Shown: in pieces, positions 52,501 through 55,500 of the stretch
How the letters are laid out: each line of letters opens with the position of its first letter
How positions within the stretch are numbered: position 1 is the first letter of the stretch
Assembly: GCA_046760225.1 (NCBI GenBank)
Contig: JBHIDR010000001.1
Span: forward strand, 1 to 61,483
Reading direction: 5' to 3'
Source of the DNA: Candidatus Aenigmatarchaeota archaeon
GTDB taxonomy: Archaea; Aenigmatarchaeota; Aenigmatarchaeia; Aenigmatarchaeales; JACQIB01
DNA: 61,483 nt
Program-made: the position numbers

Positions 52501-55500
52501 GCTTTTTCTGATTATCATTCAAGTAACAGGTTTCCAGGATAATCTTTGTGATTATGCGCTCGTCTGGCTCTTCATATTCCCTTATTGTCTTTAGAATCGT
52601 GCTTATCTCGTTCTCAACATACTCTCTTTCTCCCTTAATCATCCTGTGGACATTTATGGGAAAATCAAATTCTATTGGATAAGATTCAGGCATGCCATAA
52701 TTATGGGGGCAAAAAGATTTAAATGGGCAATCAAAAAAGATTCTCTCTTCTCAGCATACTGCTTTGTCTTGGGACCTGTAGTTCTGGTACTGCTCCAGAG
52801 AATCTAGCTCTGCAATAAGGTCCCTTCCGTTTGACTTGTAAACAAGTGTCCTGCTGTCCCATTCACTGGGGAACTCGTCAATAAGGCTCATCCTCAGCAA
52901 GGCCCTTATGTCGCGCCTTATAGCAGACTCGTTCCTTCCAGTCAAAGTTGTGATTTCCTTTACTGTAAGACCATAATCTTCTGCTTCCTTGACAAGAACA
53001 TAGACTTCACCTTGCCTCACAGAAGGATACTCTGTCTTATGTTCATCAGTAATAGCCATGTCAAAGGGGAAGAACTTCCTGTAAATGCCTATTTTTTCTG
53101 ATTTTAGGTACTCAAAGCCCTCCAGGACATTTATATGATGCGATATGGAGCCGTTGTTCAGATTAAGTATATCCTTTATGATGCTATAGTGTATTCCAGG
53201 GTTCCAGAAAACCAGGTTGTATATGCTGTTTCTTACCGGGTTGTCGAGCACCATCTCCTGGGTTATGTGCCTACTTCTCATAGACCTGAATTGGCATGAA
53301 GAAACTTAAATAATATGTTCTGGGTTAGGCGATTGCCGAAATGGTGCGGGAGGTGAGAGTTTCGCTTCCACCTTCGTGCACCGAAGGCGGTGCTTCGAAC
53401 TCACGAAGGGACTATTGTGGACCTCTTCCCTTTTGATTAACCTTTTGGGAAAAGGTTACCCACAAGGTTCTGAGCCTTGCACCGTTGACCTGGCTTGGCG
53501 ACTCCCGCCTAGAAAATAGTAATTGTGCAAACCATTTAAAATACTAATGTTCAATAGTTAGCATGGCAGCAAAGCCAAAGGTAATAGATGTACATTGTCA
53601 CCCATGGTTCAGGGACCCTGTGGGCAAGAAAATAGCCAAAGAAGCTGGGATTAATTTTTCCATGAAGGGGCTTCTTGAGGATTTCAGGAAGAACAATGTT
53701 GTAAAGGCAATCCTGATTTCAGATGACAACAAGGTACTTGTTGACACTGTGAAGAAATATCCTAAGCTCTTTATTGGTGCTCCCATAGTACATCCACCAA
53801 AAGCCCAAAAAGACCTAAAGGAGATAAAGGCTGGCATTGGTGCAGGATATTTCGGTGCAATCAAGATACTTCCAGGATACTTTAATTTTTATCCGAGTGA
53901 CAAGGTGTACTGTCCCTTCTACAAGCTGGCTGCCAAGCACAACATTCCTGTAATTATCCATACAGGAGATACACTGAAGGGCGAGAAGGGGCGCCTGAAG
54001 TATGCCAGGCCAATACATGTTGATGATGCTGCTGTTGATTTCCAGGATGTCAACTTCATCCTCTGCCATATGGGCTGCCCCTGGTTCATGGAGGCTGCAG
54101 AGGTTGCCTACAAGAACCCCAATGTCTGGACAGACATATCAGGCATAGTGACCCATGAGCTCAACGACACTGACAAGAAGTACATAGTATATAGGCTGTC
54201 TGAGGCCATAAACTATGTTGGCCCGGAAAAAGTGCTCTTTGGAACAGACTATCCCCTTATCTCCCATAAGGAACTGCTTGATTTCACAAGGATGCTGGAT
54301 GTGACCAAGTCAGAACTAAGGCAGATACTTCACACCAATGCCTCCAAACTCCTGAAATAAATGTTTTCTGGTCCAAGAATATCCTATGGGATACCTCGAG
54401 AACAAGCGGAAAATGATAGAGAGTGGGGAGCTTATTCCTTTTGAATCTAAGGAGGCTGCTGTAGAGGCTCTGCAGGAGCAGCGCTATTGTTCTGATGCTG
54501 AAATTAAGGTCAAGGAGCGTGAGATAAGCAGGGAGCAATTGGAGGAGGATGGAGCAACAAAGAGGTACCTGGTCACCAAAGTTGTGGAGGAATATGACCC
54601 GGACGAGGCAAATCGTCAGTTCTACATCAAAGCAGTCCAAGATGGCTCAATTGAGCTTTACAGGAACAGGGAAGGCACCTTAGTGGTAATAATGCCGGAC
54701 AAGGTCCTTGAAAAATGGGACAAGGAAAGAGAGGCAAATTCTGTAAGATTTTTATATACCCCAGATAATTAAATAAAGAGGTTAAAACATGAGAGATTTG
54801 GTTTTATATGCCCATTTAATACTGGGATTTGCTCTCATAGTGCTGTCAATAGTAATTTTACTTGAATCAAAGAAGAAATCTTCTTGGCTCAAGCCGCTTT
54901 CCGCTATAACTGCTGGCATAAGCTGGCTACACATGATTCCATCCGCCAGCCTCTACATAACATTTTATCCTGCAACAAAGAGCCTTATCAAGGCTGGCGC
55001 ATGGCCATGGGCACACCTGATTTTCATGGAAACAAAGGAGCACTGGAGTTTGCTTGTTCCGATCATAGCCACGCTTGCAGCCTGGCTGGTTTTCAGGGGC
55101 AAAATAGAAGAAAGCAAAAGATGGTGGATTCTTGTTATAGCCCTTACAGTACTGGTTGGAGTAATGGGAAGAGTTGTTACACTGGGGGCATTCATATGAA
55201 GAAATTCAATTTTTATTTGGGGGCAAGCGTAAGCGCATGGCTGCTTGCAGTTTTGGTTATCGTGGCAGAGCTTGCAGAACCATTCAAAGCACTTCTAAAG
55301 ACAACGTTCGGGCATCACTGGACTGCCAAGGCAGTTATCATAACTTTGGCCTTCCTGGCCTTTGGCTATTTGCTGGGGGAAAGAAAAAGGGTTGGAAAGT
55401 TTTCAGACGACAGCGCAGCTTGGTACAGTGTGCTTGGCAGTTTGGCTGTAATCTTCCTGTTTTATGTGATTGAATTTTTTGTATGAGGCGTGGAAATGAA

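What a model noticed while it worked through the whole genome (the two positions that open the first line are those of the whole stretch)
53340..53508. Two families of near-identical mini-introns sit at one and the same T-loop position of nine different tRNA genes
Nine tRNA genes of different isotypes are interrupted at the same place, six bases into the T-loop, by one of two repeated sequences: family A (35-37 nt, six copies, two of them identical) and family B (about 53 nt, three copies). I read them as recently multiplying mobile bulge-helix-bulge introns that use the universally conserved T-loop as landing site, which would explain why standard finders see only 16 tRNAs here. Repeated intron families at a non-anticodon site, absent from the sister species, would be a live example of how archaeal tRNA introns multiply.
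Evidence so far: Pattern scan and blastn over the whole genome: family A at C1:53393-53359 (tRNA-Leu CAG), C3:44887-44853 (tRNA-Leu GAG; 35 of 35 identical to the former), C37:4047-4013 (94%), C20:9423-9457 (91%), C32:4348-4382 and C1:51829-51793, each right after the first six T-loop bases and followed by the rest of the T-arm, the acceptor strand and the CCA end. Family B at C3:28207-28259 (tRNA-Lys), from C1:59087 downward for about 55 nt (tRNA-Leu UAG, 97% over 39 nt) and C4:5308 to about 5360 (tRNA-Thr CGU, 94% over 36 nt). For the Leu(GAG) copy the borders form a motif with 4 of 4 central pairs and a 5-bp outer helix. The G033 orthologs (Leu CAG, Leu GAG, Leu UAG, Lys, Thr CGU) have uninterrupted T-loo [...]
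(Added by a program. Inside this text positions count along the whole contig: contig position 1 is position 1 of the stretch shown here. "Call 12" and the like, gene names such as g00115 and contig names such as C1 are that model's own, and its searches are not shown. The text may have been shortened before it was handed on; [...] marks where a part breaks off. The agent that wrote the report below was given it as the finding of a first reader that could run no searches.)

Follow-up and report, generated by a model that had tools for sequence, protein, structure and literature searches.

The report
Multiplying mini-introns in tRNA T-loops
In this tiny DPANN archaeon, many tRNA genes are interrupted at one and the same spot of the T-loop by a few families of near-identical short introns, which makes it a useful natural case for studying how archaeal tRNA introns get copied.

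Summary
All nine reported copies sit at the stated coordinates. My own scan found 17 of 39 recognisable tRNA genes with an insert after T-loop base 59.

- **Splicing motif.** Each insert fits a bulge-helix-bulge motif. The T-stem is the outer helix. T-loop TTCR (54-57) pairs with the intron's 3'-proximal four bases (four pairs in 16 of 17), and two 3-nt bulges flank this helix. The geometry matches that of a canonical 37/38 intron on the anticodon arm.
- **Enzymes.** A two-gene alpha/beta splicing endonuclease and the ligase RtcB are present.
- **Copying.** Only the T-loop introns form families: 15 of 17 at 80% identity or more, against 2-3 of about 46 other inserts.
- **Close relative.** In the same-genus genome all 17 orthologs have intact T-loops.
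- **Age.** The habit is old and wide. 59/60 inserts occur in 15 of 41 other genomes of the order and across the class of Aenigmatarchaeota-labelled genomes.

No RNA data exist, and the copying mechanism is unknown. 59/60 introns and intron transposition are each known elsewhere, so this is a new variant of a known kind. This scan has noted similar T-loop repeat introns in other DPANN genomes.

The parts
53342..53508 (-). tRNA-Leu(CAG) gene with two introns, CCA encoded
   Evidence: Read. After the inserts are removed relative to the same-genus ortholog, ARAGORN calls Leu(cag), 89 nt. The ortholog G001:C5:5977-6062 has no introns.
53359..53393 (-). Family A intron (35 nt) at tRNA position 59/60 of Leu(CAG)
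   Evidence: Central helix TTCG/CGAA has 4 of 4 pairs; bulges are AA|G and AC|T; outer helix is the 5-bp T-stem. An inner 9-bp hairpin is predicted and keeps pairing through two-sided changes in other copies.
53415..53457 (-). Second intron (43 nt) in the variable arm of Leu(CAG)
   Evidence: Insert relative to the G001 ortholog. Read from the sequence: central helix GTGG/CCAC, bulges GT|A and AA|T. Its core is 87% alike over 31 nt to a T-loop intron of G020, a different family of the order.
51776..51888 (-). tRNA-His(GUG) gene with one intron
   Evidence: The G001 ortholog has a 37/38 intron instead and an intact T-loop.
51793..51829 (-). Family A (subfamily ii) intron, 37 nt, at 59/60 of His(GUG)
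   Evidence: Strict motif: TTCA/TGAA 4 of 4 pairs plus a 7-bp inner helix. It is 95% identical to the copy in Ala(GGC) at C4:8922-8958.
59015..59176 (-). tRNA-Leu(UAG) gene with two introns
   Evidence: ARAGORN calls Leu(tag) after removal of the inserts. G001 Leu(UAG) at C5:5606-5691 has no introns.
59032..59087 (-). Family B intron (56 nt) at 59/60 of Leu(UAG)
   Evidence: TTCG/CGAG pairs 4 of 4 (one G-U), and this central helix is predicted in the minimum-energy fold. It is 88% and 86% identical to the Lys and Thr copies.
59127..59143 (-). 17-nt intron in the anticodon stem (about 30/31) of Leu(UAG)
   Evidence: Insert relative to the G001 ortholog. The boundary was read by eye and can slide by one base. 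It belongs to no family.
39704..39806 (-). tRNA-Ala(UGC) gene with inserts in the anticodon arm but an intact 7-nt T-loop (in-window contrast)

Best explanation
These are protein-spliced (bulge-helix-bulge) tRNA introns at position 59/60. In the precursor, the T-stem is the outer helix. T-loop bases 54-57 (TTCR, present in every tRNA) pair with four bases near the intron's 3' end (YGAA or a variant). Two 3-nt bulges hold the cut sites: 58, 59 | first intron base, and the last two intron bases | 60. The T-arm plus intron therefore has the same geometry as an anticodon arm with a canonical 37/38 intron. The alpha/beta splicing endonuclease would cut it and RtcB would join the exons. Because the pairing partner TTCR is universal, an intron that carries the matching four bases is spliceable in any tRNA. 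That is why a few intron lineages could be copied into 17 unrelated tRNA genes of this genome. Shown here: the copies, their exact common site, the motif, the enzymes, and the intact T-loops in the same-genus genome. Inferred: that they are spliced, and that they spread by copying. The route of copying is not known.
For: 1. Copies and site: 17 of 39 pre-tRNAs carry an insert right after T-loop base 59.
2. Motif: the central helix has 4 of 4 pairs (G-U allowed) in 15 of the 16 copies scored, and 3 of 4 in Ala(GGC). The Leu(GAG) copy is identical to Leu(CAG) and brings the count to 16 of 17. Bulges are AA|G or AA|A (AG|G in Ala GGC) and AN|T in all.
3. Covariation with the host: the base opposite position 57 tracks it. 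A57 faces T in 10 of 10 copies. G57 faces C in 4, T in 2 and A in 1 of 7.
4. Host genes: 13 of the 17 host genes are called by ARAGORN with the expected anticodon after the inserts are removed. Two were mis-parsed and two were not called; I read these four by eye and by orthology. Sixteen of 17 are the only gene found for their anticodon.
5. Copying: likeness ends at the conserved T-loop bases. T-stems differ, with 4 of 5 stem pairs changed on both sides and 100% paired. Family C copies are 93-98% identical in Arg, Glu, Leu, Gly and Pro genes. 15 of 17 T-loop introns fall in families of 80% identity or more, against 2-3 of about 46 other inserts (Fisher P about 1e-9).
6. No copy lies outside a tRNA gene.
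7. The same-genus genome G001 (87% complete, 42 tRNA matches) has intact T-loops in 17 of 17 orthologs, partly in conserved gene order. Shared 37/38 introns of the two genomes are only about 60-93% alike by eye, and 77% for Pro.
8. Link to the canonical site: Pro(CGG), whose anticodon loop also starts with TTCG, carries related introns at 37/38 and at 59/60 (37 of 43 identical, both with a run of 7 A).
9. Enzymes: two adjacent endonuclease genes. One keeps Tyr and His and is closest to the Nanoarchaeum equitans catalytic subunit 3iey_A; the other lacks His. RtcB is present.
10. In vitro cleavage of a 59/60 intron is published for another DPANN archaeon (PMC3239211, passages read).
Against: No RNA evidence exists, so splicing is inferred from geometry and from the need for these tRNAs. 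The minimum-energy folds show the outer and inner helices but show the 4-bp central helix in only 1 of the 5 T-arm constructs folded. Subfamily A-i, the 27-29-nt A-like introns and family B lack a regular inner helix next to the bulge, so their motif is relaxed. Both endonuclease subunits have Ala where Methanocaldococcus jannaschii has the catalytic Lys. No reverse transcriptase was found, though the genome is only 83% complete, and no intron-less allele was seen in four DNA runs, so there is no direct sign of ongoing movement. 59/60 introns of related sequence are class-wide, so part of the pattern could be old inheritance with loss in G001. My census of inserts is derived from alignments and is approximate.
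Confidence: 0.8

Rival explanations
1. The T-loop introns are old and vertically inherited in each tRNA gene. Their near-identity within the genome comes from gene conversion among existing copies (concerted evolution), and the same-genus genome lost them.
For: 59/60 introns occur in 15 of 41 other genomes of the order and widely in the class. Other genera of the family also have few detectable tRNAs: 11-19 Rfam matches against 42 in G001, which fits an interrupted ancestor and a cleaned-up G001. Leu(CAG) and Leu(GAG) share 97% over 73 nt including the intron. The 35-56-nt introns themselves offer homology for conversion.
Against: Orthologous tRNAs in other genera carry different introns, or none, at 59/60. 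Leu(UAG) has family B here and an unrelated insert of about 70 nt in G002. Ala(UGC), Ile(GAU) and Thr(UGU) are interrupted in G004 or G003 but not here. Family B sits in seven tRNA genes of G004, and only Lys(UUU) is shared with the three hosts here. This reading needs 17 separate precise losses in G001.
Confidence: 0.12
2. The repeated cores are functional RNA modules, for example intron-borne small RNAs or protein-binding hairpins. They are kept alike by selection, and the T-loop is merely a tolerated place to express them.
For: The family B core is about 85-90% alike by eye between this genome, G004 and G054 of a distant family. C-like cores recur in 45 of 151 genomes sampled from the phylum. 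The hairpins keep pairing through two-sided changes and fold better than shuffles, z from -2.3 to -5.1.
Against: No Rfam family matches. Three to five unrelated sequence families use the same site. G001 does without any T-loop copy. Structure conservation is also expected for endonuclease recognition alone. This reading does not by itself explain the spread to new genes, so it adds to copying rather than replacing it.
Confidence: 0.15
3. The inserts are not spliced. They are small DNA insertion elements (MITE-like) or assembly artefacts that have broken the genes.
For: Assembler contigs of the public runs tend to end at the repeats. Family C and subfamily A-ii have short inverted repeats near their ends.
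Against: The interrupted form stands in contigs of four DNA runs of one study, one of which may be the source. For example, an X3 contig spans the Leu(CAG) T-loop intron with no differences. Exons are undamaged and fold as cloverleaves. 16 of 17 genes are the only gene found for their anticodon. There is no target-site duplication: the flanks read TTCRAA and TCC. No copy lies outside a tRNA T-loop or TTCG-type anticodon loop. All copies are in the sense orientation.
Confidence: 0.03

Closest known systems
Transposed tRNA intron families of Thermoproteales (Fujishima et al. 2010, Mol Biol Evol; the paper is not held; known to me through passages of PMC4033280, PMC4090602 and section 2.5 of preprint 10.64898/2026.10.13.758758)
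   Same: Near-identical bulge-helix-bulge introns sit in tRNA genes of different isotypes within one genome, read as intron gain by copying. The share of introns in cross-type families is similar. Here it is about 15 of 63 at 80% identity or more and 11 of 63 at 90% or more (my own procedure). The preprint reports 28.3% and 12.5% for Thermoproteales.
   Different: The lineage differs: a DPANN archaeon (relatives labelled Aenigmatarchaeota) with a genome of about 1 Mb. Here the families are confined to one site, the T-loop 59/60, plus one anticodon loop that begins with the same TTCG. The roughly 46 introns at other sites are almost all unique.
59/60 introns of Candidatus Micrarchaeum acidiphilum ARMAN-2: pre-tRNA-Cys(GCA) and pre-tRNA-Pro(GGG) (PMC3239211, passages read)
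   Same: Same position 59/60, a DPANN host, relaxed and strict motifs, and a broad-specificity endonuclease. Cleavage was shown in vitro for the Cys precursor.
   Different: ARMAN-2 has single cases and a three-unit epsilon2 enzyme. Here 17 genes are affected by repeated families, and the enzyme is a two-gene alpha/beta type closest to that of Nanoarchaeum equitans.
Circularly permuted tRNA genes joined at 59/60 in Thermofilum pendens and Cyanidioschyzon merolae (PMC3218864, passage read)
   Same: The same T-loop junction is processed through a bulge-helix-bulge motif.
   Different: Those genes are permuted. Here the exons are collinear and the intervening sequences are repeated families.
[quoted passage not shown]
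   Same: Many introns per gene, many missed by standard finders, sitting at splicing motifs and gained repeatedly.
   Different: That study found almost no copying between tRNA types (1.5% at 80% identity or more) and left the route of arrival open. Here copying is plain.

Membership tests
Archaeal bulge-helix-bulge (endonuclease-spliced) tRNA intron | Removal restores a standard cloverleaf with a 7-nt T-loop | tested here: met
   All 17 give TTCRA(A/G)T on removal. ARAGORN calls the expected tRNA for 13 of 17 after the inserts are removed; the other 4 still held further introns and were read by eye and by orthology.
Archaeal bulge-helix-bulge (endonuclease-spliced) tRNA intron | Two 3-nt bulges separated by a 4-bp helix, with splice sites at symmetric places in the bulges (definition recalled, not from a call) | tested here: met
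   4 of 4 central pairs in 16 of 17 copies and 3 of 4 in one. Both cuts fall after the second bulge base. The inner helix is regular in family C and subfamily A-ii and irregular in A-i, the short A-like introns and B (relaxed type).
Archaeal bulge-helix-bulge (endonuclease-spliced) tRNA intron | Splicing endonuclease and RNA ligase encoded by the host | tested here: met
   Two PF01974/PF02778 genes lie on C2. One has the Tyr and His of the catalytic triad and the other lacks His. RtcB lies on C35. The position of the catalytic Lys is Ala in both subunits.
Archaeal bulge-helix-bulge (endonuclease-spliced) tRNA intron | Excision and exon joining seen in RNA or in vitro | not testable with these tools
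   No RNA run is listed for this DNA.
Transposed intron families (Thermoproteales type) | Highly similar introns in tRNA genes of different isotypes in one genome, at the same tRNA position | tested here: met
   At 80% identity or more there are four families spanning 2-5 isotypes each, all at 59/60.
Transposed intron families (Thermoproteales type) | Intron absent from the orthologous gene of a close relative | tested here: met
   17 of 17 orthologs in same-genus G001 have an uninterrupted T-loop. G001 is 87% complete.
MITE or other DNA insertion element | Target-site duplication, and insertion in varied genomic contexts and both orientations | tested here: not met
   No duplication at the borders. 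All copies are in tRNA loops in the sense orientation, and none lies elsewhere in the genome.
Self-splicing group I or II intron | Ribozyme core recognised by Rfam models; size in the hundreds of bases | tested here: not met
   The introns are 27-56 nt and give no Rfam match.

The most novel reading that the evidence does not exclude
These are protein-free mobile RNA elements of 27-56 nt built as 'core hairpin plus a 4-base guide'. The guide pairs with the first four bases of a 7-nt loop on a 5-bp stem. With the guide YGAA the universal T-loop TTCR becomes a landing pad in every tRNA, and anticodon loops that begin with TTCG are used as well. Copies arise by reversal of the host's own splicing chemistry (endonuclease plus RtcB) on another tRNA, followed by fixation in DNA. 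The lineages have been moving within and between genomes of a whole DPANN class.
Probability: 0.3. Interest if true: 0.85.

Novelty: new variant of a known kind. Interest (0 to 1): 0.65.

Why it matters
How archaeal tRNA introns arrive at new sites is an open question. The 2014 review PMC4090602 calls the mechanism unknown, and the 2026 Asgard preprint found no route of arrival. Outside Thermoproteales, clear cases of intron copying between tRNA genes are lacking in the papers I could search.

This genome offers very young copies: family C differs by 1-3 of 42-43 aligned positions across five unrelated tRNA genes. There is a same-genus genome without them and a likely relative at the canonical site of tRNA-Pro(CGG). 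A simple rule can also be tested at the bench: four bases of the intron must pair with TTCR.

The finding also explains why tRNA sets of such DPANN genomes look incomplete to standard finders. PMC5829648 raises this gap for DPANN and Asgard genomes.

Tried and rejected
- **Standard finders.** ARAGORN on the window found nothing. With the intron option on the genome it gave 21 calls, several mis-typed. Rfam at gathering and at E<=1 found no tRNA in 51600-59300.
- **My own scans.** The first two pattern scans were far too permissive. I kept only hits with an NCCA tail, a 7-bp acceptor and a T-loop beginning TTCRR: 42 hits. I dropped three longer than 300 nt and one on C29 as non-tRNA, lengthened the C37 gene and added Leu(GAG), giving 39. 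One of these, C16:3599-3357, is doubtful. Genes without an encoded CCA, or with other T-loops, are not in this set.
- **Folding.** RNAfold did not predict the 4-bp central helix in 4 of the 5 T-arm constructs. I do not count that against the motif, because isolated 4-bp helices between bulges are penalised by the energy model.
- **RNA evidence.** No RNA holder is listed.
- **Laying four DNA runs (one study) on the stretch.** No joint skips a T-loop intron. The joint 53414-53475 fits the paralogous Leu(GAG) gene. The joint 59034-59142 (depth 2.4, side 21) is too weak to read.
- **Reverse transcriptase.** PF00078 was not found in a genome that is 83% complete.
- **Target-site duplication.** The apparent repeat of CGAA at TTCGAA hosts is not one: hosts with TTCAAA carry TGAA.
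- **His introns.** I could not show that the G001 His 37/38 intron is the source of subfamily A-ii; the likeness is limited to the first bases.
- **Literature.** Fujishima 2010 is not held. What I say of it comes from two reviews and a preprint, plus recall where marked. Searches for Aenigmarchaeota or Aenigmatarchaeota with tRNA intron or intron returned four papers each; the six listed do not describe this by title or abstract, and only PMC5829648 was opened. Two broader searches found only the ARMAN-2, permuted-tRNA and review papers. Papers outside the held library were not searched.
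Full report
**What is at the coordinates**

On the minus strand, 53508 to 53342 is a tRNA-Leu(CAG) gene with an encoded CCA end.

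- After GTGAG TTCGAA, that is the 5' T-stem and six T-loop bases, come 35 bases (53393-53359). These are followed by T, the 3' T-stem CTCAC, the acceptor strand and ACCA.
- A second insert of 43 bases (53457-53415) sits in the variable arm.
- The window holds two more such genes: tRNA-His(GUG) at 51888-51776 and tRNA-Leu(UAG) at 59176-59015.
- ARAGORN sees no tRNA in the window. Rfam sees none of the three genes even at E<=1.

**Checking the reported copies**

blastn against the laid genome reproduces the identities:

- Family A: 100% (C3), 94% (C37) and 91% (C20).
- The 37-nt His copy has a 95% twin at C4:8922-8958.
- Family B: 97% over 39 nt and 94% over 36 nt.

I scanned the genome for NCCA tails with a 7-bp acceptor and a paired T-stem around TTCRR. 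After dropping four false hits, lengthening the C37 gene and adding Leu(GAG), this gave 39 pre-tRNAs. Seventeen have an insert after T-loop base 59:

- **Nine A-like:** Leu CAG, Leu GAG, Gln CUG, Ser UGA, Glu CUC, His GUG, Ala GGC, Ala CGC and Ser GCU.
- **Three B:** Lys UUU, Leu UAG and Thr CGU.
- **Five of a third family C (42-43 nt):** Arg CCU, Glu UUC, Leu CAA, Gly GCC and Pro CGG.

Isotypes come from ARAGORN on sequences with the inserts removed (13 of 17). The other four come from my reading and from orthology.

**Geometry**

- With a 7-nt T-loop restored, every insert lies between positions 59 and 60.
- Bases 54-57 (TTCR) pair with intron bases -6 to -3. All four pair in 15 of the 16 copies scored; three pair in Ala(GGC). 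Leu(GAG), identical to Leu(CAG), makes it 16 of 17.
- The 5' bulge is 58, 59 | first intron base. The 3' bulge is the last two intron bases | 60. The 5-bp T-stem is the outer helix.
- This is the layout of a canonical 37/38 intron: a 7-nt loop on a 5-bp stem, cut after the sixth loop base.
- Family C and the His/Ala(GGC) subfamily add a regular inner helix of 7-8 bp (strict motif). Subfamily A-i, the short A-like introns and family B are irregular there (relaxed motif).
- The base opposite position 57 follows the host: A57 faces T in 10 of 10; G57 faces C in 4, T in 2 and A in 1 of 7.
- Minimum-energy folds show the outer and inner helices and are better than shuffles (z from -2.3 to -5.1). 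They show the central helix in one T-arm construct only.
- In family A the T-stem is 100% paired, with two-sided changes at 4 of 5 pairs. The intron hairpin is 84% paired, with two-sided changes at 2 pairs.

**The organism and its enzymes**

- The genome has 851,505 bases in 83 contigs and is 83% complete.
- Relatives found with its endonuclease are labelled Candidatus Aenigmatarchaeota, a DPANN phylum.
- Two endonuclease genes lie close together on C2. One has the catalytic Tyr and His and is closest to the Nanoarchaeum equitans catalytic subunit (3iey_A, E 6e-35). The other has no His. This suggests an alpha/beta heterotetramer.
- PMC5829648 (passages read) states that heterotetrameric and epsilon2 enzymes cut non-canonical introns.
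- Both proteins have Ala where M. jannaschii has Lys 156. I cannot explain this.
- RtcB is present.

**Evidence for copying**

- Likeness stops at the conserved T-loop bases. The five hosts of family C have five different T-stems, while the introns are 93-98% identical.
- By global identity, 11 of 17 T-loop introns fall in families of 90% or more that span at least two tRNA types. The figure is 15 of 17 at 80% and 17 of 17 at 70%.
- An all-against-all comparison of 63 alignment-derived inserts found families only among the T-loop inserts. The one exception is a D-loop pair in two paralogous Ile-like genes.
- The contrast is 15 of 17 against 2-3 of 46, P about 1e-9.
- No copy lies outside a tRNA gene.
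- Over all inserts this is about 24% at 80% identity or more and 17% at 90% or more. By another procedure the 2026 preprint reports 28.3% and 12.5% for Thermoproteales, and 1.5% and 0.2% for Asgard.

**The close relative**

- G001 (same genus, 87% complete) gives 42 tRNA matches, against 24 at a looser E-value cut-off for this genome. None has a T-loop insert.
- For all 17 host genes the G001 ortholog has an intact T-loop.
- Gene order is partly kept: Ser GCU, Val CAC, Glu UUC and Ala CGC, Ile GAU.
- Introns that the two genomes share at 37/38 are about 60-93% alike by eye.
- The family copies within this genome are therefore much younger than the split of the two species, unless gene conversion keeps them alike.

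**A link to the canonical site**

- tRNA-Pro(CGG) has an anticodon loop that begins TTCG, like a T-loop. It carries a C-like intron at 37/38 as well as a family C copy at 59/60.
- The two introns are 37 of 43 identical. They alone share a run of seven A; the other C copies have six.
- They differ by a two-sided change that keeps the inner helix (CACC/GGTG against GACC/GGTC).
- G001 has the 37/38 intron (77% alike) and no T-loop copy.

**The wider picture**

- Covariance models of families A, C and B were searched in the 42 genomes of the order and in a 151-genome sample of the phylum.
- By eye, 59/60 inserts are present in 15 of 41 other genomes of the order, in 7 of its 8 families.
- The family C model matches in 45 of 151 genomes. 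Of 11 new hits that I looked at, ten were 59/60 T-loop inserts and one was a 37/38 intron.
- Family B has seven copies in G004, a different genus. They sit in Arg CCU, Ser CGA, Val GAC, Gly CCC, Lys UUU, Tyr GUA and Leu GAG; only Lys is shared with this genome.
- The family B core also sits at what I read by eye as 37/38 of a TTCGTA anticodon loop in distant G054, and after TTCGGG at a second, less clear site there.
- The variable-arm intron of Leu(CAG) has its own matching guide (GTGG/CCAC). Its core is 87% alike to T-loop introns of G020.
- So the cores are old and widespread, the four pairing bases fit the local exon, and each lineage has had its own bursts.

**What remains open**

- No RNA run is listed.
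- Contigs of four DNA runs of one study (labelled hydrothermal vent metagenome) carry the interrupted genes. They show no intron-less allele and tend to end at the repeats.
- No reverse transcriptase was found.
- The way copies are made is therefore not known. Reverse splicing followed by fixation in DNA is the reading I favour. The common site is the one at which the splicing enzymes act on RNA, and the flanks shared by donor and target (8 and 3 bases) look too short for ordinary recombination. This is inference only.

**Comparison with what is known**

- 59/60 introns, with in vitro cleavage, are published for ARMAN-2 (PMC3239211).
- 59/60 junctions are known in permuted tRNAs (PMC3218864).
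- Intron transposition is known for Thermoproteales. Fujishima 2010 is not held; I used PMC4033280 and PMC4090602.
- My searches found nothing on tRNA introns of Aenigmatarchaeota.
- New here are the lineage, the scale (17 of 39 genes) and the confinement of the repeated families to the one loop whose sequence every tRNA shares.
- Earlier notes of this scan describe repeat-bearing T-loop introns in other DPANN genomes. Those notes are unchecked and do not enter my scores.

Noticed in passing
window 42018-46858 (minus strand): The archaeal SSU rRNA gene is broken into at least two matched blocks (45164-46858 = model 4-828; 42935-43448 = model 890-1284) by large inserts that carry ORFs. These are a LAGLIDADG_3 protein (45260-45826, E 3e-12), a 270-aa ORF with no Pfam match (44256-45068), and two ORFs with weak helix-turn-helix hits (43388-44140; 42018-42851). 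They look like rRNA introns with homing-endonuclease-type genes.
   Followed up: partly
G000:C3:44836-45826 (locus L120): tRNA-Leu(GAG) has, besides its T-loop intron, an 867-nt insert near position 37/38. It has no ORF of 60 aa or more on the tRNA strand; one 96-aa ORF lies on the opposite strand.
   Followed up: partly
G000:C2 (L001:238-729 and L001:1273-1803): Both splicing-endonuclease subunits have Ala at the position aligned with the catalytic Lys 156 of M. jannaschii (motif R-A-N / R-A-V against R-K-K). The catalytic subunit has a Lys/Arg-rich insert just before the catalytic His, as in the N. equitans enzyme.
   Followed up: no
G000:C20:9209-9474 and G001:C3:9150-9309: The long anticodon-loop intron of tRNA-Ser(UGA) (73 nt by ARAGORN's parse) is about 93% conserved between the two species, far more than other shared introns. 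It has C/D-box-like words (TGAATGA ... CTGA) and may be an intron-borne guide RNA.
   Followed up: no
G000:C35:1477-2834: RtcB matches in two pieces. The first 50 profile positions lie in a stretch with two TAG stops upstream of the main 386-aa frame. This could be a frameshift, an intein or a mis-assembly.
   Followed up: no
G013:C9:632-658 and G019:C24:1788-1816: Two relatives have T-loops of 17 and 19 bases. These would be 59/60 mini-introns of only 10 and 12 nt, shorter than any in this genome.
   Followed up: no
G001 (same genus), for example C1:6996-7109 and C1:10909-11022: G001 carries two identical copies of tRNA-Asn(GUU) with the same 42-nt 37/38 intron. Most of its interrupted tRNAs are 113-122 nt long, which points to a narrow size class of canonical introns.
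   Followed up: no
whole genome G000: All 39 pre-tRNAs in my set encode the 3' CCA end. This is a condition of my scan, so genes without CCA would have been missed.
   Followed up: no
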